NCBI GenBank assembly: GCA_025800285.1
Contig: JAOXRX010000037.1
Span: forward strand, 52,651-116,650
Source: Alphaproteobacteria bacterium
Lineage (GTDB): Bacteria; Pseudomonadota; Alphaproteobacteria; JAOXRX01
Direction of reading: 5' to 3'
Length of the DNA stretch: 64,000 bases
Below the pieces are notes generated by a model. The model saw nothing but the letters and a program-made list of their open reading frames with translations. It was not told the DNA's origin and made no database searches. Both the position numbers and the translations under genes were made by a program. Shown piece by piece: positions 10,876-51,423 of this stretch. The first letter of the stretch is position 1. Each line of letters begins with the position of its first letter.

Positions 10876-10966
10876 GGAGAGGTGGCTGAGTGGCTGAAAG
10901 CGCGCCCCTGCTAAGGGTGTATAGGGCAACCCCCTATCGAGGGTTCGAATCCCTCTCTCTCCGCCA
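10876..10966 (+). tRNA. tRNA-Ser (anticodon GCU), class II with long variable arm, CCA encoded
   Basis: Hand fold: acceptor GGAGAGG/UCUCUCC; D-arm GCU…AGC; anticodon stem CGCCC/GGGUG with loop CUGCUAA; variable arm; T-arm GAGGG-UUCGAAU-CCCUC; discriminator G plus CCA. Confidence 0.9.
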
Positions 10967-41877: not shown

Positions 41878-42501
41878 TTATTTTTTCTTTTCTTTAATTA
41901 GCTCGTAAGCTTTGTTTATTTCTGCCATTTTCTTTTCTAAAAGACTTATCATTTCTACAGGCATTCCGCAAGCAATTAAATGATCTGGATGATATTTTTT
42001 CACAAGATAATGATATCTTAATTTAAGCTCTTCTTTAGAAACTCCCTCATTAACTCCTAAAATGAAGTACGGATTTGATAAATCATAAACATTATTTATA
42101 TTACAAATCCTTAAAAAAGAACTATTATCTATTTGAAATATTTTTGCAACACTTCTTATCTCTTCTAAAGCCTCATCACTAAGCTTACCATTTGCTTTAG
42201 CTATTTGTATAAAAGCTGACAATAACTCTTCCAAGACTTCTGGGTATTTCTTAAATTTTTTATAAAGAACCTTTGCATGCAAATCAAACCCTTTAATTTC
42301 TTTAGAGGATAAATCAAATATTCTTTCAACATTGCCTATTTCCTCTTTCTTTGATTTAAAGATATCAAAAAAAACTTTCTTTTTTAAGAACAAATCATCA
42401 TCTCCAGCACGAGCAACTTTAGCAGACAAAGACACGATAGCAGAAGTTGTGTTTATCTGCTGATTTATTTCTTTTATCTTGCCTATGATTTTCTTAATCA
42501 T
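41878..42501 (-). CDS. J-domain protein (C-terminal DnaJ domain with HPD; DjlA-like, TerB-like middle region inferred)
   Basis: …NPYFILGVNEGVSKEELKLRYHYLVKKYHPDHL… is a canonical J-domain. The ORF overlaps sufD by 8 nt. Confidence 0.6.
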   Translation of the reverse strand: MIKKIIGKIKEINQQINTTSAIVSLSAKVARAGDDDLFLKKKVFFDIFKSKKEEIGNVERIFDLSSKEIKGFDLHAKVLYKKFKKYPEVLEELLSAFIQIAKANGKLSDEALEEIRSVAKIFQIDNSSFLRICNINNVYDLSNPYFILGVNEGVSKEELKLRYHYLVKKYHPDHLIACGMPVEMISLLEKKMAEINKAYELIKEKKK

Positions 42502-43180
42502 TTTTATTCTCGTTTATAAGATCAAATATTTTCTCTTTTATAGAATTATCACTAACAAACTTTACAGCTTCATCTAAAAATCCATCAATCAGCATTTCTC
42601 TTGCCAAGGATTCTGGAATCCCTCTACTTTGCAAATAGAACACTGCTGTTTTATCCAAGTTTCCAACCGTATTACCATGAGCACACTGAACATCATCATT
42701 ATAAATTTCTAACTCTGGTTTAGCCATAATTTTTGCATCATCTGATAGTACCATAGCTCTGTGCAACTGTTTAGCTTCTGTTTTAACAGCTCCTTCAGCA
42801 ACCAAACTCTTCATTAGAAGATTTGCTCTTGATTTGTCTTTTGCAATACCTCTAATATTTATTGAGGAAGAACATTTTGGCTTATCATGGAAAACATTTA
42901 TGTTAATATTAGCTTCTTGTTTATCTTTTAAAGAGTAAACACCCGCTATATTCGCTTCACAATTTTCTGACTCCATATTGACACTAATATCTATACTATT
43001 AGCTTTATTTATGAAAAAAGTTTCAAAATAAGATTTTTCTTCTTGTTTTACTTTTAGGCAAACATCATCTTCACTATCTAATAAATACAGATATAGTCTT
43101 GCATTTCTTTTTACGACAATGACATCTTCACTGTGAGCATCTATAATTCTATGTTCTGTATTTTCTGTTACATTAAGCAT
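42494..43180 (-). CDS. sufD: Fe-S cluster assembly protein SufD (unusually short, 228 aa)
   Basis: The C-terminal SufBD beta-helix region is recognisable (…QCAHGNTVGNLD…FYLQSRGI…). It follows sufB-sufC. Confidence 0.7.
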   Translation of the reverse strand: MLNVTENTEHRIIDAHSEDVIVVKRNARLYLYLLDSEDDVCLKVKQEEKSYFETFFINKANSIDISVNMESENCEANIAGVYSLKDKQEANININVFHDKPKCSSSINIRGIAKDKSRANLLMKSLVAEGAVKTEAKQLHRAMVLSDDAKIMAKPELEIYNDDVQCAHGNTVGNLDKTAVFYLQSRGIPESLAREMLIDGFLDEAVKFVSDNSIKEKIFDLINENKND

Positions 43181-43911
43181 TATGATTTATACCCTGTCTC
43201 TTCCAGCTCAAGAGCAAGATTCTTATCACCTGTTTTAGTTATTTTTCCATCTGCTAAAACATGAATAAAATCTGGCTGTATATAATCTAACAATCGTTGA
43301 TAGTGAGTAATAATTAAGAACGACCTACCTTCACTTCTAAGTCTATTAACACCGTCTGCGACTTCTCGTAGAGCATCAATATCCAAGCCCGAATCCGTCT
43401 CATCCATAATTATCATATCTGGCTGTAGCATAGTCATTTGCAAGACTTCATTTCTTTTCTTTTCTCCACCTGAGAATCCAGAATTAACTCCTCTTTTACC
43501 CATATCAGAATGAATATGTAAATCTTTAATACTTGCTGATAGAGCTTTCATAAACTCTAAAGTATTCATTTCTTTTTCTCCAAGAAACTTTCTCTTTGAG
43601 TTTATTGCCATTCTTAAAAATGTATTATTTGTAACACCTTCTATCTCAACTGGATACTGAAAAGCTAAGAATAAACCATTATTTGCTCTTTCATCAATAC
43701 TCATGTTTAATAGGTTATGACCTTTAAAATCTACATGACCATCAGTTACCTCATAACCCTCTTTACCTGCAAGAGTATAAGAAAGTGTAGACTTACCTGC
43801 TCCATTAGGACCCATTATAGCATGAACCTCCCCAGGATTAATATCTAAGCTCAATCCCTTGATAATTTCTTTATCTTGTACTTTTACTTTTAAGTTTTCT
43901 ATTTTTAGCAT
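43180..43911 (-). CDS. sufC: Fe-S cluster assembly ATPase SufC
   Basis: Walker A GPNGAGKST, ABC signature LSGGEKKR, and Walker B IMDETDSGLD. Confidence 0.95.
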   Translation of the reverse strand: MLKIENLKVKVQDKEIIKGLSLDINPGEVHAIMGPNGAGKSTLSYTLAGKEGYEVTDGHVDFKGHNLLNMSIDERANNGLFLAFQYPVEIEGVTNNTFLRMAINSKRKFLGEKEMNTLEFMKALSASIKDLHIHSDMGKRGVNSGFSGGEKKRNEVLQMTMLQPDMIIMDETDSGLDIDALREVADGVNRLRSEGRSFLIITHYQRLLDYIQPDFIHVLADGKITKTGDKNLALELEETGYKS

Positions 43912-43924
43912 TTTTATTTCCTAT

Positions 43925-45328
43925 CTAACCTACTGATCCTTCTAGGGATAAACTAATCAATTCTTGTGCTTCAGAGGCAAACTCTAATGGCATCTTAGTC
44001 ATAACATCTGCACAAAATCCATTTACTATAAGAGATACTGCATCCTCTTCTTTTACACCTCTTTGCTGACAGTAAAACAACTGTTGTTCTGAAATCTTAG
44101 ATGTAGTAGCTTCATGCTCTAATATTGAGCTTTTGTTATCATTCTCTACCACTGGGAATGTATGAGCACCACATTTATCTCCTATAAGAAGGCTATCACA
44201 TTGAGTATAATTTCTGGCATTTTCTGCATTTTTTAGCACTTTTACCATTCCTCTATATGAAGATTCCGATTTACCACAGCTAATAGTTTTTGCAATAATC
44301 TTAGAGGTTGTATTCTTCCCAATATGTATCATCTTTGTTCCTGTATCAGCTTGCTGATAATTATTAGTTATAGCTATTGAATAGAACTCTCCTATTGAAT
44401 TATCTCCTTTAAGAATACAACTAGGGTACTTCCATGTTATAGCAGATCCTGTTTCAATTTGAGCCCAACTAATTTTTGCATTATTGTAAGCAGTTCCCCT
44501 TTTGGTAACAAAGTTATATATACCACCATTGCCCTGCTCATCTCCTGCAAACCAATTTTGTACTGTGGAGTATTTAATATCAGCACCATCAAGAGCAACT
44601 AATTCAACAACAGCTGAATGCAATTGATTTTCATCTCTTTGAGGAGCTGTACAACCTTCCAAGTAAGATACAGAAGCACCCTCATCTGCCACGATTAGAG
44701 TTCTCTCAAACTGCCCTGTTTTTTCACTATTAATTCTAAAATATGTGGATAGATCCATTGGGCATTTAACACCTTTAGGAATGTAAACAAAACTACCATC
44801 AGAAAATACCGCAGAATTCAAACAAGCGAAATAGTTATCAGTTGCAGGAACAACTGTAGCTAAATATTTCTTAACTAGCTCTGGATGATTCTTTACAGCA
44901 GATGAGAACGAACAGAAAATTATGCCTAAATCTTCCAACTCTTTTCTATGAGTAGTAATTACAGAGACACTATCAAAAACAGCATCAACTGCAATTTTAT
45001 TTTCCTGAGTCTCATTTATAGGAACACCTAATTTTTCATAAGTTTCTTTAAGCTCTTTATCTTCTTTATTCTCTGGTTCTGAATAATAGAAAATATCTTG
45101 ATAATCTATTTCTGGATAATCTAGCTTAGCCCACTTAGGCTCTTTCATTTGCAACCATTTGCTATAAGCATTAAGTCTAAACTCTAACAACCACTCTGGT
45201 TCTTCTTTTTTAGAAGAAATAAGTTTAATAATTTCTTCATTAAGCCCCTTTGGTATCTTATTGCTTTTTATCTCACTTACAAAACCATATTTATAATGGC
45301 TATTTGCAACTTTTTTTATTTCTTCCAT
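43925..45328 (-). CDS. sufB: Fe-S cluster assembly protein SufB
   Basis: 467 aa with SufB-specific conserved blocks. Confidence 0.95.
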
Positions 45329-45471
45329 AGAGCTTTTTTATAACAGAAAAAGAAAATAAAATCAATTATTGTTTTAAATAAAAAATAAAATTTTATAAAA
45401 TCAAGCGGATAAAAAAATAGAGAAAAAGATCGAAATCTTTTTCTCTATTTACACTGTTCTTTATGCTAAAA

Positions 45472-48400
45472 TTAATCAGTCCAATTTTCAAGCCAAGCAT
45501 TAAGAGCTGCTTTTGCTTCTTCTAATACTTCGTCTGCTTCTACAGCCATATCTTTTAAATCTTGCATTTCTTCTTTTTGAGAGTCTTTTTCAAGAGCTTC
45601 CATAAAGTTACCAACAATTTTAAGACCAATATTTCTAGACATTCCTTTTAGCAAATGAGCTTTTGATTTTATTTGATCTCTATCATTCTCAGATATTGCT
45701 TCTAGCAAGTCTTTTTGTGCCTCTTGTGAAGATGCTCCAAATTGAGCAACAAGACCTTGGAAAACATCTAAAGAGAAACTTTTCTTAAGATTTCCTAACA
45801 CTTCCATATCTAAATGCTTCATTAATTCTTCTTCTTGTAAATCTATTTTTTCCACAGATCCTCTGTTCCTTTCTAACGCACCCTTTAAATAGTTAGGGTT
45901 AATTGGTTTACCTATAAAGTCATTCATCCCTACTTCTCTACATAACTCTACATCTTTTTGTTTTATATTACCTGTTATAGCTATCACAGGTGTATTTGCC
46001 TTCATTTCATCTGTTAAAGATCTAATTTTTTTAGTAGCTTCTAATCCACTAATACCGGGCAAATCAATATCCATCAATATCGCTAAGAAGTTATTCTTAT
46101 CTATTAGGCTCAAACCTTCTTCCGCAGACCCAACAACTACTGGATTATATTTAAAGGACACCAAATATTCAGATACTATCTTTTGAGAAACAGGATCATC
46201 CTCGACAACAAGAACATAAGGAAGTCCTTTAACTTCTTCATTTTTCTCAATTTGCACAGATACCTCTAAAGATACTGGGTTTTTATGTTTTGGAACAGGT
46301 ATTTTATTCTTTTCTAAGTTTTTGTTAACACTCTCAAAAGAGAATCCTGAACCAACAGCATCTACATTTGCCATTCTAAGCATAGCACCTCTTAGATAAT
46401 CTGGGTCGACAGGCTTACCAATGAAATCATTCATCCCAGCTTTTCTGCAATCTTGTATATCCTCTTCAGAAACATTACCTGTAACAGCAATAATAGGAAC
46501 CTCAGCCTTTTTCTTATCCTCTAAAGACCTTATTCTTTTTGTTGTTTCCAACCCACTCATACCAGGCATATTTATATCCATAAGTATAAGGTCAAACTCT
46601 TCTGCTTTAATCCAATCTATAGCCTCTTTACCACTTCCTGCAACTTTAGTAGTATGGGCATCATTCTTTAAATAGCCTTCAATAATTTTTTGAGAAATAG
46701 CATCATCTTCTACTATAAGAACTCTATCTATTTTATTAGAGCCATCTTCAGATACTTGATTCAAATCTTTTTTCTTCTTCTCTGTATCATCTTCTTTTAG
46801 TTCTTCTTTTACTTCTTTAAGTTTTTCTTCTTTTTTGGCTTTTGTCTTTTTATTATTCTTTTGAGGACCACCTTCTTCTGAAGACTTACCTTCATCTTTT
46901 TCATCTATTAACTTAAATATTTCAAAAAGAGCTTGTTGAATATCTTCTGGAGAAACAGGCTTGCCTAAACAGAAGTTCACACCTTGCTCCATATATCTTT
47001 TCCTGTCTGCTTCCGCCACATTACCAGTAAGAGCAACAACAGGCATATTTTCCACACCTTCTTTTTGTCTTATATACTTACAAACTTCTATACCATTCAT
47101 ATCTGGCAAGCCCATATCTAAGAATACAAAATCAACATCGCCAGCATCTACCATACGTATAGCACTTGCTCCATCAGAAGCATATTTAGGCAATTGACCA
47201 TTTGAAGATAAGTATGACCCTACAACTTTTTGAGAAATAGCATCATCCTCAACAACAAGTACTTCATAAGACCTATCTTTTTGGTTCTCCATATAGTCCA
47301 TTTGCTCTGTTTTTTCTTCAATTGCATCAGCTATATCGAATTCAACTTCCCACCAGAATGTTGAACCATCGCCTTCTTTAGAAATAACTCCTATTTCTCC
47401 TCCCATAGCAACAACAAGCTTCTTACATATACTTAGACCTAGTCCAGTTCCACCAAAGTTTCTTGTAGTTGATTTATCAGCCTGCACAAACTCTTGGAAC
47501 AACTTATCTTTCGCATCTTCTGGAATACCAATACCTGTATCACGGACCTCTGCTCTAATCTTACATCTCTCTCCTGATCTTTTTATACTTCTTAGAGAAA
47601 CATAAACCCCACCCTCTTTTGTAAACTTAATAGAGTTACCTATCAGGTTAAGCATAACCTGTCTAAGCCTTGTTGGGTCACCATTTATAAATTGAGGAAT
47701 AGTATTATCAAAATCAGCTTTTAGCTCTATTCCTTGTTGTTCTGCTCTAGCCTTCATAGTTAGAACAATATTATCTATAAACTTATGTAAATCAAAAGGA
47801 ATGTCTTCCAGCTCCATATGTCCAGAAGAAAGCTTTGAGAAATCCAACACATCATTAAGTAGTGATAACAGTGCCTCACCAGAATAAGTCAAGTTATCTA
47901 GGAATTCTTGTTGTTTTTTATCTAACTCAGTATTAGCTAACATCCTAACCATACCCATAATACCATTCAAAGGAGTTCTAACCTCATGACTTAAGAAAGC
48001 AATATAACCAGACTTAGATTCACTCTCAGCACTTGCTTTATCAGCAATCTGTTGAATCGCTTTACCTCTTTCAGCCATTTTAAGCAATAGATTTGCTTCA
48101 ACTTCTTTTTCTTGCTCTATAATTTTCATTTTATGAGCCTGTTCTGAAACTTCTTTAAAATGTCTCTCTTCTGCTTTTTTTCTTAATATCTCTTCTTTTT
48201 TAGCTCTAATTCTTAAAGATCTTGCTTTCAAAAACCTCACATTCTCTAGAATTGCTGACAAAAATACTGAGAAAAACAAGCAATAAACTATCGGAGCCAT
48301 ATATAGCACAAAGTTATAAACAAAAGACTTCTCTATAGATTTCATTTGAAAAACATCAAATAAGAAAAGAGGTATTAATGCTGCACCCGCTAACAAACAA

Positions 48401-48900
48401 GAAAAACAGTATTTAGAAACTGTTTTTGGTTGTACAGACGAATAATAGCTACCTGTAACAAAGCATGTAAACAATGCAATAATCATACTTGCAAAACTAA
48501 TTGTCTCTTTTATTTTAAATCTAATGGTCGGAATAAAATTCATTGCAATTAAGAACACCAAACAAACTATTAGTGCATTTATATTCTTATTTATTTTTTC
48601 ATTTGTTAATTTTGTACTAAATATGCTTTTACAAAAAGATATGAAAAATATAGCCCAAACCAACATTAGAAAATTTGATATTACAGCAATATCTGTTATT
48701 GATAAGTTTAAGTTAAAAACCTCTACTTCTATCCCCGCTATTTGTTTAACATATATAGCTAAAAGCCCTGAAATAAAAAGTAAAAAAGACCATAAAAACT
48801 TATTGCTCTTTAGTATTTTAAAAAATTTAAAGTTAGTGTATGTTAAGGCTACAACCAAACCTGAGTCTAAATGACTTATTGATTCCATCCAAGAGTACAT
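45472..48900 (-). CDS. Hybrid sensor histidine kinase: multi-TM sensor + HisKA/HATPase + three receiver (REC) domains + C-terminal Hpt
   Basis: H-box LSHEVRTPLNG, N/G1/G2 boxes, three REC cores (VFLDMGLPDMNG; LILMDINMPGMSG; AILMDIDLPGISG), a K/E-rich linker, and Hpt His in SKAHLLKGMSRNIGL. Confidence 0.9.
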   Translation of the reverse strand: MYSWMESISHLDSGLVVALTYTNFKFFKILKSNKFLWSFLLFISGLLAIYVKQIAGIEVEVFNLNLSITDIAVISNFLMLVWAIFFISFCKSIFSTKLTNEKINKNINALIVCLVFLIAMNFIPTIRFKIKETISFASMIIALFTCFVTGSYYSSVQPKTVSKYCFSCLLAGAALIPLFLFDVFQMKSIEKSFVYNFVLYMAPIVYCLFFSVFLSAILENVRFLKARSLRIRAKKEEILRKKAEERHFKEVSEQAHKMKIIEQEKEVEANLLLKMAERGKAIQQIADKASAESESKSGYIAFLSHEVRTPLNGIMGMVRMLANTELDKKQQEFLDNLTYSGEALLSLLNDVLDFSKLSSGHMELEDIPFDLHKFIDNIVLTMKARAEQQGIELKADFDNTIPQFINGDPTRLRQVMLNLIGNSIKFTKEGGVYVSLRSIKRSGERCKIRAEVRDTGIGIPEDAKDKLFQEFVQADKSTTRNFGGTGLGLSICKKLVVAMGGEIGVISKEGDGSTFWWEVEFDIADAIEEKTEQMDYMENQKDRSYEVLVVEDDAISQKVVGSYLSSNGQLPKYASDGASAIRMVDAGDVDFVFLDMGLPDMNGIEVCKYIRQKEGVENMPVVALTGNVAEADRKRYMEQGVNFCLGKPVSPEDIQQALFEIFKLIDEKDEGKSSEEGGPQKNNKKTKAKKEEKLKEVKEELKEDDTEKKKKDLNQVSEDGSNKIDRVLIVEDDAISQKIIEGYLKNDAHTTKVAGSGKEAIDWIKAEEFDLILMDINMPGMSGLETTKRIRSLEDKKKAEVPIIAVTGNVSEEDIQDCRKAGMNDFIGKPVDPDYLRGAMLRMANVDAVGSGFSFESVNKNLEKNKIPVPKHKNPVSLEVSVQIEKNEEVKGLPYVLVVEDDPVSQKIVSEYLVSFKYNPVVVGSAEEGLSLIDKNNFLAILMDIDLPGISGLEATKKIRSLTDEMKANTPVIAITGNIKQKDVELCREVGMNDFIGKPINPNYLKGALERNRGSVEKIDLQEEELMKHLDMEVLGNLKKSFSLDVFQGLVAQFGASSQEAQKDLLEAISENDRDQIKSKAHLLKGMSRNIGLKIVGNFMEALEKDSQKEEMQDLKDMAVEADEVLEEAKAALNAWLENWTD

Positions 48901-48973
48901 AAATGAGATTCTCCTAATAAATATATATATTTTTTATTATTAAATCATTTAAAGCATATTTTCAAGTAAAAAA

Positions 48974-50260
48974 TCAATTAAACACTATGTTAAGCTTATT
49001 AATAGCATCTTTTATAGGAATAAAGAAATTAATCCCTATTGAATATTCGCCTATACCAGAAACACAAATTGCTAATAGATTTCCCTTATCATCTAGCAAA
49101 GGACCTCCGCTATTTCCAGCTTGCACATCAATATCTGTTTGAATTAATTCATAATTAGATCCTTCTTCTTGCCTCCAAGAACTTACCATTCCCTTAGAAA
49201 GAGTGTTTTTTAAAGATGTTAACAAAGGGGTTCCAACCGCATAGACCGTTTCTCCTAGCTCAGCTTGCTGATCTCTTATAGGTAAAAAAGGTAATTTTAA
49301 TCCCTCAGGTACATCTACTTTTAATAAAGCAATGTCTCTAGATTTATGAACCCGTATAATATCTGCATCCATTACTAAACCGTTTTGATTTTCCACAACA
49401 ACAGAATCAACATCCCCAACAACATGATAATTTGTTAACAAATAACCATCTTTAGAGATAAAAAACCCGCTTCCATGACCCGTTGCCGTTCTTATAAAAA
49501 CCGTAGAGTCCATTACTCGATTCATATTTTTCTGTATTTTATCTTTAAAGTTATTTGCTTTTTTTATCTCTAAACCTTTAAAAGGCCACTTTTCTCTTAA
49601 ACTTCTTTTATTTCTTGGTTTTGAAAATATTAATTTTTGAAACTCTTCATTATTTGCTAACTTATTAGCCGCTGAGGCAAAGGCTTCGTTTAACAAAACC
49701 TCTCTTCCAAATAAGTTTCTATTTTTTAATTTATAATACCCTCTAGTTTTTATACTCATAACTATTTCTTTTTTCGCCACTGAATAAACTTGCCAAAAAA
49801 CAGTCATTTCTCCCTCTCCAGAAACACCTTTGAGCCAATAAAAACTTCTATGGTTGCATTCATTCAATTTAATGCCTCTAATTTGAGCTCCAATTCTATA
49901 CCTAGCTCTTTTTTTATCAGAGGTTACTCCATACATTAAGCCAGGATCTCCGACTACATCATATCCTCTTAGGCTCATTTCTTCAAAAAACAAATCTTGA
50001 TAACTCATTTCTTTAGCAATTTTTCTAATCCCCTTCCAAACCAAACTGTCTAAAGAAGAAGAACACTTTAAACTAAGCATTCTTTTACCTATAATTGCTC
50101 CTCGGGGTAAAGAGTAAGAAACTTTATCTAAAATTATTGGCTCTGGCAGATTGTTTTCATATCTATTATGATACTCTATTAATTCAGGCTTTATTATTTG
50201 CATTTTATTACAAGAGCTAATAGCAAAAAGCATAAAAAAACATGTAATTATTTTTTTCAT
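48974..50260 (-). CDS. Lipoprotein with C-terminal trypsin-like (S1/Do-type) serine protease domain and uncharacterised N-terminal domain
   Basis: Lipobox AISSC. Catalytic triad in context: TNYHVV (His), RDIALLKV (Asp), GNSGGPLLD (Ser). Confidence 0.7.
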   Translation of the reverse strand: MKKIITCFFMLFAISSCNKMQIIKPELIEYHNRYENNLPEPIILDKVSYSLPRGAIIGKRMLSLKCSSSLDSLVWKGIRKIAKEMSYQDLFFEEMSLRGYDVVGDPGLMYGVTSDKKRARYRIGAQIRGIKLNECNHRSFYWLKGVSGEGEMTVFWQVYSVAKKEIVMSIKTRGYYKLKNRNLFGREVLLNEAFASAANKLANNEEFQKLIFSKPRNKRSLREKWPFKGLEIKKANNFKDKIQKNMNRVMDSTVFIRTATGHGSGFFISKDGYLLTNYHVVGDVDSVVVENQNGLVMDADIIRVHKSRDIALLKVDVPEGLKLPFLPIRDQQAELGETVYAVGTPLLTSLKNTLSKGMVSSWRQEEGSNYELIQTDIDVQAGNSGGPLLDDKGNLLAICVSGIGEYSIGINFFIPIKDAINKLNIVFN

Positions 50261-50348
50261 TTTTTAATCTTTCTTTTTTAAAAAAATTATCCTATAATCA
50301 TGACGAAATACATTAAAGAAAATTTAACAAATTTACAAGAGGAATTTT

Positions 50349-50696
50349 ATGGAATACGATAAAAATAATATATTTGCAAAGATATTAAGAGGGGAAATAC
50401 CTAACGATACAGTTTATGAAGATGAATATTGTTTAGCATTTAATGACTTGTATCCAAAGTCTGAAGTTCATATCGTAGCAATACCAAAAGGAGAATATAT
50501 CAATTTTGCCCACTTCAATTCTAATGCTAGTGATATAGAAATATCTAATTTCTTTAAGGCTATATCAAATATAATAAGAGAAAAAAACATTGAATTAGGC
50601 TGTCAAATACTTTCAAATTGCGGTGAAAAAGGTGGACAAGAAATTCCTCATTTCCACATGCATATATTAAGTGGGAATAAAATAAAACTTGACTAA
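50349..50696 (+). CDS. HIT-family (Hint) nucleotide hydrolase
   Basis: Histidine triad HFHMHIL. Confidence 0.85.
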   Translation: MEYDKNNIFAKILRGEIPNDTVYEDEYCLAFNDLYPKSEVHIVAIPKGEYINFAHFNSNASDIEISNFFKAISNIIREKNIELGCQILSNCGEKGGQEIPHFHMHILSGNKIKLD

Positions 50697-50736: not shown

Positions 50737-51423
50737 ATGAAAAAGAATTTATTTGTATTAATTTTATTGCTGTGCACTTCTTGCTCTTACCAGAAATATA
50801 ATATTTTTGGTGGTAAAGTTATGTACGCAGAAGATATAAAACCAGAATATAAAAAAGCTCAAGCAGTTAAAGAGTATAAAGAAGAAACAATAGTAGCAGA
50901 AAAAGAAGAAAGCTCTAATCGACCTCAGATAAAAGAGTTAAAAGTTGGAGAGTTTCCTAATATAAAAGACATCCCAACAGAGCCTAAAAACTTCCCTAAA
51001 AAAGCTGACATAGATAATCAGAAAAGAGATCTTTTATCAAAAACTACTGTTATAGAAAGTAACTCTGCAATTATAACAGAGTCAATCTTCTCTGGCTTTG
51101 ATGACGAGTTATTGCAATTTACTGTTTCAGATATAATGAGCAGAAACTTACCGAAAGAATATAAAGATCAAAGAGCCTTACTATCCGCTTCAATTAAAAA
51201 TGAAATATCTGCTGATGATTTATCAGCTATAGAACTAATCGCAAAAGATCGTATTATAAATATAAAACCTATATTACTATCTTTCAATAAAGATTCAAAT
51301 GATGCATTTATTGAAGAGACTATCTCTACACTACTATTAATGGGAATTGACCCTTCAATGGTATATGTAAATAGAAAAAATTCATCTAAAAACCTTAATG
51401 CAGAAGTATATCTGTACTACTAA
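50737..51423 (+). CDS. Hypothetical lipoprotein
   Basis: Signal peptide plus lipobox (LLCTSCS). No domain recognised. Confidence 0.5.
   Translation: MKKNLFVLILLLCTSCSYQKYNIFGGKVMYAEDIKPEYKKAQAVKEYKEETIVAEKEESSNRPQIKELKVGEFPNIKDIPTEPKNFPKKADIDNQKRDLLSKTTVIESNSAIITESIFSGFDDELLQFTVSDIMSRNLPKEYKDQRALLSASIKNEISADDLSAIELIAKDRIINIKPILLSFNKDSNDAFIEETISTLLLMGIDPSMVYVNRKNSSKNLNAEVYLYY

What the first reader, a model, noticed from the sequence alone, without database searches (positions are those of the whole stretch)
45472..48900. 1142-aa hybrid histidine kinase with three tandem receiver domains and a terminal Hpt: a complete phosphorelay in one polypeptide
Domain order by motif: 6-7 TM helices, a coiled coil, HisKA (H in SHEVRTPLNG), HATPase_c, REC1, a 50-aa K/E-rich linker, REC2, REC3, then Hpt (KAHLLKG). 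All three REC domains keep the phospho-acceptor Asp and the conserved Lys. Single-REC hybrids are common; a triple-REC plus Hpt architecture is rare. It suggests branched or sink-type intramolecular phosphotransfer. The sensor domain is membrane-embedded with no periplasmic loop, so it probably senses a membrane or lipid signal.
Basis: seen in the sequence. Interest (0 to 1): 0.55.

Follow-up and report, generated by a model that had tools for sequence, protein, structure and literature searches.

The report
Sensor kinase with three receiver domains
This is a real, intact gene for a membrane-bound bacterial sensor kinase that carries three working-looking receiver domains plus a phosphotransfer domain, which is a rare arrangement of ordinary two-component-signalling parts, not a new kind of system.

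Summary
The ORF at 45472..48900 (minus strand, 1142 aa) is real. All three RECs keep the full catalytic set of residues. So do all 21 RECs in the six relatives. Four orthologues from other metagenomes (61-67% and 33% identity) have the same single-polypeptide architecture, and one shares the gene neighbourhood, so this is not a fusion artefact. The protein is already deposited as MCV6599127.1, auto-named "response regulator", from an uncultured low-GC alphaproteobacterial MAG.

A 2010 census allows at most 10 proteins with this domain set among 43,426 two-component proteins, so the architecture is rare. It is not unique: an unrelated HK-REC×3-Hpt protein turned up among the hits. "Complete phosphorelay in one polypeptide" overstates the case, because there is no output domain. 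The C-terminal Hpt most likely feeds a separately encoded regulator, and none lies within the window or 10 kb either side. The seven-TM sensor has no periplasmic domain and belongs to a very small family, possibly a divergent 7TMR-DISM. What it senses is unknown. Interest is low to moderate.

The parts
45472..48900 (-). Whole gene: 1142-aa hybrid (unorthodox) sensor histidine kinase, stop codon included
   Evidence: ORF list. Identical protein in NCBI as MCV6599127.1 and in a Logan contig.
48235..48900 (-). aa 1-222: seven-helix transmembrane sensor domain with no periplasmic domain (loops of 12 aa or fewer)
   Evidence: Hydropathy. AlphaFold helices 2-30, 34-56, 68-93, 101-121, 128-156, 159-180 and 193 onward. 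Orthologues P0004 and P0005 match Pfam 7TMR-DISM_7TM at 29.8 and 23.1 bits. A profile of this domain finds only its own three clusters among 1.84 billion representatives.
48019..48234 (-). aa 223-294: charged helical connector (signalling-helix-like) between TM7 and the DHp
   Evidence: 44% charged residues and 69-75% identity among the low-GC orthologues. AlphaFold helix 193-262 continues from TM7, and helix 282-322 leads into the DHp.
47821..48015 (-). aa 296-360: HisKA/DHp domain with phospho-acceptor H305 and the E306-x-x-T309 motif
   Evidence: Pfam 6.9e-17. H305, E306, R308, T309 and P310 are invariant.
47338..47682 (-). aa 407-521: HATPase_c catalytic domain with intact N, G1 and G2 boxes
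   Evidence: Pfam 9.9e-29. N418, N422, D454, G456, G458, G484, G486 and G488 are invariant.
46900..47274 (-). aa 543-667: REC1 (E551, D552, D595, T625, K647; D+2 is Gly)
   Evidence: AlphaFold confidence about 90 with a (beta-alpha)5 fold.
46735..46899 (-). aa 668-722: disordered K/E-rich spacer
   Evidence: For aa 665-724: 58% charged, 24-28% identity and a length of 55-97 aa among orthologues. AlphaFold confidence below 50 for 669-721.
46357..46734 (-). aa 723-848: REC2 (E731, D732, D775, T807, K829; D+2 is Asn)
46225..46356 (-). aa 849-892: second linker, carrying the clade-conserved motif NLEKNxIPVPKHKNP
   Evidence: 47-57% identity in the low-GC clade but not conserved in P0005. Low AlphaFold confidence with a short helix at 855-864.
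45847..46224 (-). aa 893-1018: REC3 (E900, D901, D944, T976, K998; D+2 is Asp), joined to the Hpt by about 15 aa
45478..45813 (-). aa 1030-1141: Hpt four-helix bundle with phospho-acceptor H1082 (AHLLKG)
   Evidence: Pfam 2.6e-08. H1082 is invariant and K1085 nearly so. AlphaFold helices 1032-1141 at confidence about 90.
45415..45450 (-). Terminator-like hairpin (16-bp perfect stem, then a T-run) 21 nt after the stop codon, separating the kinase gene from sufB
   Evidence: It was the only terminator-like site in 45200-50500; shuffles gave a mean of 2.5.
48911..48965 (-). Upstream region: promoter-like TTGAAA-18-AATAAT (48936-48965) and Shine-Dalgarno AGGAG (48911-48915)
   Evidence: Promoter-like sites are not enriched over shuffles, so this is only a consensus match.

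Best explanation
The gene encodes a functional multi-receiver 'unorthodox' hybrid sensor kinase.

Shown from sequence: a seven-helix membrane domain with no periplasmic module is connected by a long helix to an intact HisKA/HATPase_c transmitter. This is followed by three catalytically complete receiver domains and a C-terminal Hpt.

Inferred mechanism: a signal perceived in or at the membrane modulates autophosphorylation of H305. The phosphoryl group moves to the tethered receiver aspartates D595, D775 and D944. It then passes to H1082 of the Hpt, and from there to a response regulator encoded elsewhere in the genome.

Only one REC is needed as the through-route. REC3 is the best candidate because it is fused to the Hpt by a tether of about 15 aa whose length is constant across the five three-REC proteins. 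The other RECs would compete as acceptors (sinks or buffers) and as reverse-flow sites. That would set the threshold, gain and decay time of the output.

REC1 is the extra module relative to the two-REC family member P0011.
For: -
- All 21 RECs in the seven family sequences keep the acidic pair, the phospho-Asp, Thr/Ser and Lys.
- Each REC is conserved at 68-81% between orthologues, whereas linker 1 is at 24-28%. So all three RECs are under purifying selection.
- The three RECs form one in-family clade. Each groups with its counterpart in the low-GC orthologues, and REC1 and REC3 also do so in the 33%-identical P0005.
- All three share the alpha1 motif D-x-[IV]-S-Q-x-[IV]-[IV]-x-x-Y-L. This is the helix known from the HK-RR specificity literature to contact the DHp and Hpt, which is consistent with shared docking partners.
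- D+2 differs by position: Gly, Asn and Asp in REC1, REC2 and REC3 of the low-GC clade, and Asn, Asn and Asp in P0005. From memory of the Bourret-lab work, this position tunes phosphoryl-group stability.
- P0011 has REC(N)-REC(D)-Hpt directly after a P/A-rich linker, so it looks like this architecture minus REC1.
- P0011 has a REC-GGDEF regulator gene 19 bp upstream, which supports output through a separate regulator.
- Census data show that T-R-P proteins are predominantly orphans (PMC3018481).
- Precedents: RetS REC2 acts as a phosphate sink (PMC5992135). RodK has three RECs that are all required, with preferential transfer to the third (PMC3868531).
- The HExxT motif at 305-309 is compatible with transmitter phosphatase activity. 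This rests on established knowledge, not a test here.
Against: - No phosphotransfer was measured, so the route and the roles of the three RECs are inference.
- No partner response regulator or other Hpt lies in the window or within 10 kb either side. The output is therefore unidentified.
- REC1, not REC3, sits in the canonical position next to the catalytic domain, about 23 aa away. It could equally be the first acceptor.
- The single REC of one-REC relatives aligns with REC3 in one alignment and with REC2 in another. Orthology to the canonical relay REC is therefore unresolved.
Confidence: 0.55

Rival explanations
1. Self-contained His-Asp-His-Asp relay. H305 passes phosphate to REC1 (D595), then to Hpt H1082, then to REC2 and/or REC3 as the terminal acceptor inside the same polypeptide. 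The phosphorylated terminal REC gives the output through protein-protein contacts, as single-domain regulators such as CheY or DivK do.
For: All four site types are present and intact. The gene is an orphan with no regulator gene within the window or 10 kb either side. REC1 sits next to the catalytic domain as a canonical first acceptor, and REC3 abuts the Hpt. Single-gene T-R-P-R relays exist: 85 in the census in PMC3018481.
Against: There is no output domain. The Hpt is C-terminal after all the RECs, whereas the census single-gene relays are written T-R-P-R. The relative P0011 has an adjacent REC-GGDEF regulator. Most T-R-P proteins are orphans yet are thought to use distant regulators.
Confidence: 0.15
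2. One or two of the RECs are mainly regulatory modules and not phosphate carriers. They would dock on the DHp/CA to autoinhibit the kinase or bind a ligand, as in Caulobacter ShkA, where c-di-GMP binding to a pseudo-receiver frees the true receiver. They could also mediate contacts with other kinases, as in RetS.
For: ShkA (6qrj) and RetS (6dk8) are among the closest solved relatives of the kinase core, at 230 and 154 bits. The long flexible linkers would allow domains to dock back. REC1 is the most divergent REC, at 33-36% identity to the others.
Against: All three RECs keep every catalytic residue in every family member. That differs from ShkA REC1, which I recall as a degenerate pseudo-receiver. 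No c-di-GMP-binding motif was looked for or found.
Confidence: 0.2
3. Assembly or frameshift artefact that fuses separate kinase, receiver and Hpt genes.
For: One related assembly (P0001, a 7.1-kb Logan contig, 94% identity) has the gene broken after REC3 into 1040-aa and 116-aa ORFs.
Against: The identical 1142-aa ORF occurs in two independent assemblies: an NCBI MAG contig of 247.8 kb and a Logan contig. Orthologues at 66%, 67%, 61% and 33% identity from other metagenomes have the same uninterrupted architecture. P0004 shares the gene order RecJ-HIT-protease-kinase-SufBCD. The break in P0001 splits a gene; it does not fuse genes.
Confidence: 0.01

Closest known systems
Unorthodox (tripartite) sensor kinases ArcB, BarA/GacS, TorS, EvgS and BvgS
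   Same: They share the HisKA-HATPase_c-REC-Hpt order with a C-terminal Hpt that serves a separate response regulator. These are the best NCBIfam partial matches: TorS 530 bits, BarA 509 bits and ArcB 445 bits.
   Different: All scores fall below the equivalog cut-offs of 676, 890 and 838, so this protein is not an orthologue of any of them. It has three RECs where they have one, and a seven-TM sensor without a periplasmic or PAS input domain.
7TMR-DISM hybrid kinases (Pseudomonas RetS and LadS, and the Micavibrio-type DISMED2-7TM-HK-REC-Hpt proteins among the hits)
   Same: They share a seven-helix membrane domain followed by a long helix, a HisKA kinase and REC domains. RetS has two tandem RECs, one of which acts as a phosphate sink (PMC5992135). 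The RetS kinase core is a close solved relative (6dk8, 154 bits). Two orthologues match Pfam 7TMR-DISM_7TM.
   Different: There is no DISMED1/2 extracellular domain. The window protein itself does not reach the Pfam threshold, and small-profile comparisons are not significant. From memory, RetS and LadS lack an Hpt. This protein has three RECs plus an Hpt.
RodK of Myxococcus xanthus (and the archaeal MA4377 system)
   Same: RodK has one transmitter followed by three receiver domains. All three are needed, and the kinase prefers the third (PMC3868531). In the MA4377 system of Methanosarcina acetivorans, a hybrid kinase transfers phosphate to three RECs and prefers the third, R3 (PMC11784639).
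   Different: From memory, RodK is cytoplasmic and has no Hpt. Sequence orthology was not tested. In the MA4377 system the third REC (R3) is a separate, downstream-encoded protein.
ShkA of Caulobacter crescentus
   Same: It is an alphaproteobacterial hybrid kinase with two REC-fold domains after the transmitter. It is the second-best solved match (6qrj, 230 bits).
   Different: ShkA is cytosolic and is activated by c-di-GMP (10.1101/675454). From memory, the c-di-GMP binds a degenerate pseudo-receiver and the Hpt protein is separate. In the present protein all three RECs are catalytically complete and the Hpt is fused.
P0040, an unrelated metagenomic 4HB_MCP-HAMP-PAS-HisKA-HATPase_c-REC×3-Hpt protein
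   Same: It has an identical output architecture, T-R-R-R-P. This shows that the arrangement has arisen more than once.
   Different: It has a different sensor (periplasmic four-helix bundle, HAMP and PAS). Its first REC falls in a separate REC clade together with the first RECs of the two-REC hybrids P0026, P0055 and P0063, and a weak CRE1-type pseudo-receiver match lies over its third REC.

Membership tests
Hybrid/unorthodox histidine kinase (HisKA class) | HisKA dimerisation domain with a conserved phospho-acceptor His in the H-box | tested here: met
   Pfam HisKA at 296-360, E = 6.9e-17. H305 is invariant in 121 sequences.
Hybrid/unorthodox histidine kinase (HisKA class) | HATPase_c domain with N, G1 and G2 ATP-binding boxes | tested here: met
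   Pfam HATPase_c at 407-521, E = 9.9e-29. N418, N422, D454, G456, G458, G484, G486 and G488 are invariant.
Hybrid/unorthodox histidine kinase (HisKA class) | Fused receiver domain with the acidic pair, phospho-Asp, Thr/Ser and Lys | tested here: met
   All three RECs carry the full set. It is conserved in all 21 RECs of the family.
Hybrid/unorthodox histidine kinase (HisKA class) | C-terminal Hpt four-helix bundle with the HxxKG histidine | tested here: met
   Pfam Hpt E = 2.6e-08, 34.4 bits against a cut-off of 24.6. H1082 is invariant. AlphaFold gives a helical bundle at confidence about 90.
Hybrid/unorthodox histidine kinase (HisKA class) | Actual His-Asp-His phosphotransfer | not testable with these tools
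   This needs biochemistry.
Named equivalogs TorS, BarA, ArcB, RcsC, LuxQ and EvgS (NCBIfam) | Whole-protein score above the curated equivalog cut-off | tested here: not met
   TorS 530.6 against 676.5, BarA 509 against 890, ArcB 445 against 838. All others are lower.
7TMR-DISM receptors | Seven transmembrane helices N-terminal to the signalling module | tested here: met
   Seven helices in both AlphaFold models. Hydropathy shows six strong and one weak segment, and seven segments in P0004, P0005 and P0011.
7TMR-DISM receptors | Significant match to Pfam PF07695 (7TMR-DISM_7TM) | tested here: inconclusive
   The window protein gives no hit even at E up to 10. Orthologue P0004 scores 29.8 bits (cut-off 29) over profile positions 10-203 of 205, and P0005 scores 23.1 bits. 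hhalign against 15 DISM relatives gives 6% probability. Small-profile hmmsearch is not significant.
7TMR-DISM receptors | Extracellular DISMED1 or DISMED2 domain | tested here: not met
   No Pfam match. Only 11 codons lie upstream of the ATG. All loops are 12 aa or shorter.
Multi-receiver hybrid kinases of the RodK type (T-R-R-R) | One transmitter followed by three receiver domains in one polypeptide | tested here: met
Multi-receiver hybrid kinases of the RodK type (T-R-R-R) | Sequence orthology to RodK | not tested
The resemblance is architectural only.
ShkA-like c-di-GMP-gated hybrid kinases | Degenerate pseudo-receiver that lacks phospho-acceptor chemistry and binds c-di-GMP | tested here: not met
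   All three RECs keep the complete catalytic set. Ligand binding cannot be tested here.

The most novel reading that the evidence does not exclude
The three tethered, catalytically intact receivers might form a built-in phosphate-partitioning circuit. Two RECs would act as competing sinks with different phosphoryl stabilities (D+2 is Gly, Asn and Asp in REC1, REC2 and REC3). Output from the Hpt would then rise only after the sinks fill, giving a threshold or timer device in a single polypeptide. It would be driven by a lineage-restricted, ligand-domain-free seven-TM sensor. The two-REC relative P0011 and the three-REC proteins would then be a natural before-and-after pair for the acquisition of an extra sink (REC1).
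Probability: 0.15. Interest if true: 0.5.

Novelty: new member of a known kind. Interest (0 to 1): 0.25.

Why it matters
If the three receivers really partition phosphate, this small family would be a compact natural model. Two-REC and three-REC versions share the same sensor and Hpt, so the pair could show what extra receiver domains do in hybrid kinases (sink, buffer, insulation or threshold). That question has so far been addressed in only a few systems, such as RodK, RetS and MA4377. Otherwise this is one more auto-annotated hybrid kinase from an uncultured alphaproteobacterium. Its practical value is a corrected annotation: it is a sensor kinase, not a "response regulator".

Tried and rejected
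- **Genome-collection scan.** One of the six patterns, MDINMPGM, is a generic REC motif and probably caused the saturation. Absence of orthologues in that collection therefore cannot be concluded.
- **TM domain against 7TMR-DISM relatives.** hhalign and small-profile hmmsearch were not significant.
- **TM-domain profile against 1.84 billion representatives.** It found only the family itself plus one spurious weak hit, so it gave no functional clue.
- **Search for REC or Hpt proteins near the gene.** None was found in the window or in the 10-kb flanks.
- **DnaA-box search near the GC-skew minimum.** There were 24 matches against 19.9 expected. That is no enrichment, and there was no cluster.
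- **Taxonomic placement through MnmG.** It resolved only to an uncultured alphaproteobacterium. The nearest genus-named hit is Micavibrio at 63%.
- **Fusion artefact, degenerate RECs and a hidden N-terminal domain** were each considered and rejected on the evidence above.
- **RodK primary paper.** PMC2648370 is not held, so RodK facts come from a citing paper.
Full report
**Observation**

The window carries an ATG-started ORF at 45472..48900 on the minus strand that encodes 1142 aa. Only 11 codons separate the upstream in-frame stop from the ATG. An AGGAG Shine-Dalgarno lies 10 nt upstream. Orthologues start with the same MYSWME. No N-terminal domain has therefore been missed.

Pfam finds HisKA (296-360), HATPase_c (407-521), three Response_reg stretches (8.5e-78 together) and Hpt (1050-1118).

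Alignment to CheY shows that each receiver keeps the acidic pair, the phospho-acceptor Asp, the Thr and the Lys:
- REC1: E551, D552, D595, T625, K647.
- REC2: E731, D732, D775, T807, K829.
- REC3: E900, D901, D944, T976, K998.

H305 and the N, G1 and G2 box residues are invariant in a 121-sequence alignment. The Hpt histidine H1082 is invariant in a 45-sequence alignment.

**Structure prediction**

An AlphaFold2 model of the full protein has mean pLDDT 78.5 and pTM 0.37, as expected for beads on flexible strings. It shows:
- Seven helices between residues 2 and 215. The seventh continues as a long helix to residue 262.
- Three (beta-alpha)5 receivers at pLDDT about 90.
- A helical Hpt bundle.
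- Confidence below 50 for 669-721, 848-893 and 1014-1020.

Coiled-coil pairing of the connector helix was not tested.

**Not an artefact**

The identical protein is in NCBI as MCV6599127.1, "MAG: response regulator [Alphaproteobacteria bacterium]", on a 247.8-kb contig. It also occurs in an independent Logan assembly.

Four further proteins from other metagenomes have the same uninterrupted TM-HK-REC-REC-REC-Hpt architecture. They are P0002 (66%), P0003 (67%), P0004 (61%) and P0005 (33% identity, from a higher-GC organism judging by its Ala/Gly/Pro/Arg-rich sequence).

P0004 lies on a 342-kb contig with the same gene order as the window: RecJ, hypothetical, HIT, trypsin-like protease, kinase, SufB, SufC, SufD, DnaJ/TerB, RsmB, TatD. 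One 94%-identical assembly (P0001) has the gene broken after REC3. That is a split, not a fusion.

**Organism and context**

The window is 28-35% G+C. MnmG from the window is 99% identical to a protein of an "Alphaproteobacteria bacterium" MAG. Identity then falls to 86%, 78%, 73% and about 65%, with Micavibrio at 63% the nearest genus-named hit. This is a deep, uncultured alphaproteobacterial lineage.

A perfect 16-bp hairpin followed by a T-run sits 21 nt after the stop codon. The kinase is therefore transcriptionally separated from the downstream suf genes.

No other REC or Hpt coding region exists in the 64-kb window or in the 10 kb beyond either end. In this lineage the kinase is an orphan.

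**The family**

A profile of the TM domain was searched against 1.84 billion representative proteins. It found only its own three 50%-identity clusters, represented by P0003, P0005 and P0011. The sensor module is therefore very narrowly distributed.

P0011 comes from a Rhodospirillaceae-labelled MAG. It has the same TM domain, kinase and Hpt but only two RECs.

In a neighbour-joining tree, all RECs of this family form one clade, separate from the single RECs of the DISMED2-7TM relatives. REC2 and REC3 are 50% identical. REC1 is 33-36% identical to either. Each REC groups with its counterpart in the low-GC orthologues, and REC1 and REC3 also do so in P0005.

The residue two positions after the phospho-Asp (D+2) is position-specific:
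- REC1: Gly in the low-GC clade, Asn in P0005.
- REC2: Asn.
- REC3: Asp.
- P0011: Asn in its first REC and Asp in its second.

P0011 therefore looks like this architecture without REC1. In P0011 a P/A-rich linker follows the catalytic domain directly.

Receiver domains are 68-81% identical among the low-GC orthologues. Linker 1 is only 24-28% identical and varies in length from 55 to 97 aa. The REC3-Hpt junction is 15 aa in all five three-REC proteins. All three receivers share the alpha1 motif D-x-[IV]-S-Q-x-[IV]-[IV]-x-x-Y-L. That helix is the main DHp/Hpt contact surface in the HK-RR specificity literature.

**The sensor**

The window protein's own TM region has no Pfam match. The orthologous regions of P0004 and P0005 match 7TMR-DISM_7TM over nearly the whole model, at 29.8 bits (cut-off 29) and 23.1 bits. 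Many of the next-best full-length hits are DISMED2-7TM-HK-REC-Hpt proteins of Micavibrio-like alphaproteobacteria.

Direct profile comparisons with those relatives were not significant. Foldseek of the TM model against the PDB found nothing.

I regard the domain as a probable but unproven, highly divergent 7TMR-DISM-type 7TM module that has lost, or never had, the extracellular DISMED domain. What it senses cannot be inferred. Polytopic sensors without periplasmic domains are known to sense membrane state, small ligands, quinones or partner proteins. This is general knowledge and was not tested here.

**Mechanism**

The best-supported reading is a multi-receiver unorthodox kinase. Phosphate would move from ATP to H305, then to one or more tethered REC aspartates, then to H1082, and finally to a regulator encoded elsewhere.

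The domain complement and intact chemistry are shown. The route is inferred. Three observations argue that the Hpt serves an external regulator:
- The Hpt is C-terminal.
- There is no output domain.
- P0011 has a REC-GGDEF gene 19 bp upstream. Its GGDEF motif reads DGQQF, so that domain is probably not a cyclase.

Extra receivers acting as competing acceptors have precedent:
- RetS REC2 is a phosphate sink for GacS (PMC5992135).
- RodK needs all three RECs and prefers the third (PMC3868531).
- MA4377 transfers phosphate to three RECs, preferring the third, which is a separate downstream-encoded protein (PMC11784639).

Three rivals remain. Mainly regulatory or autoinhibitory receivers, as in ShkA, is the second; the ShkA kinase core is the second-closest solved relative (6qrj). 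Conservation of every catalytic residue in all 21 family RECs argues against degenerate pseudo-receivers. It cannot decide between route, sink and regulatory roles. The third rival, an assembly artefact, is rejected on the evidence above.

**Comparison and novelty**

NCBIfam's best matches (TorS, BarA, ArcB) all fall below their equivalog cut-offs. The protein works like an unorthodox kinase but is not a member of any named orthologue group.

The architecture is rare. In a census of 43,426 two-component proteins, 88 single-transmitter proteins had three receivers. Only 20 proteins had five signalling domains, and 10 of those were PPPTR. At most 10 could therefore be T-R-R-R-P (PMC3018481).

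It is not unique. P0040 is an unrelated 4HB_MCP-HAMP-PAS kinase with the same REC×3-Hpt tail. Two-REC-plus-Hpt hybrids were common among the top hits, at 31 of 121, although that list is biased towards multi-REC proteins.

All parts are standard and the protein is already deposited. I file it as a new member of a known kind (multi-receiver hybrid/unorthodox sensor kinases), with an unusually narrow sensor family. Interest is low to moderate (0.25). It is a tidy candidate for studying what extra receivers do, but nothing here would surprise a two-component-system specialist.

Noticed in passing
window ~50260-50349 (and the whole-window skew profile): The cumulative GC skew reaches its minimum near 50 kb. 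Gene orientation also switches there: minus-strand genes lie to the left of 50260 and plus-strand genes to the right of 50349. gidA-gidB, two isochorismatase genes, parA-parB and a CcrM-like methyltransferase (N6_N4_Mtase plus RAMA) follow 10-25 kb to the right. The chromosomal replication origin may therefore be close to the kinase gene. However, the intergenic gap is only 88 bp and DnaA-box-like sites are not enriched (24 against 19.9 expected).
   Followed up: partly
window 48974-50260 (-): A 428-aa predicted lipoprotein lies 73 bp upstream of the kinase on the same strand. It has the signal and lipobox MKKIITCFFMLFAISSC, a C-terminal Trypsin_2 protease domain (aa 263-398) and an N-terminal 250 aa with no Pfam match. 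The same neighbour is present next to orthologue P0004. The whole region is syntenic there, so the adjacency alone does not show a functional link.
   Followed up: partly
L085 9056-9982 (+), next to P0011: The two-REC family member P0011 is preceded, 19 bp upstream, by a REC-GGDEF response regulator. Its GGDEF signature reads DGQQF, so the domain is probably catalytically inactive. It is a candidate cognate regulator type for this kinase family. No counterpart was seen near the window gene.
   Followed up: partly
protein P0001 / P0125 (Logan contig, 7.1 kb, 94% identical to the window protein): In this related assembly the kinase gene is broken after REC3 into a 1040-aa ORF with a scrambled tail and a separate 116-aa ORF. 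This is either a sequencing indel or a real frameshift in that strain.
   Followed up: no
window 46225-46356 (aa 849-892, REC2-REC3 linker): Unlike the first linker, this one carries a motif conserved in the low-GC clade, NLEKNxIPVPKHKNP, with a short predicted helix at 855-864. The motif is absent from the 33%-identical P0005. It could be a short docking motif, but its function is unknown.
   Followed up: no
window 10876-10966 (+): A single tRNA-Ser (anticodon GCT) is the only Rfam or ARAGORN RNA gene found in the 64-kb window.
   Followed up: yes
window 42494-45328 (-) and 41878-42501 (-): A sufB-sufC-sufD cluster is followed directly by a DnaJ/TerB-domain gene, with no sufS or sufE. The arrangement is conserved in the P0004 contig.
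   Followed up: no
window 50737-51423 (+): A 228-aa predicted lipoprotein (MKKNLFVLILLLCTSC) has no Pfam match. It is conserved in position between HIT and RecJ in the P0004 contig.
   Followed up: no
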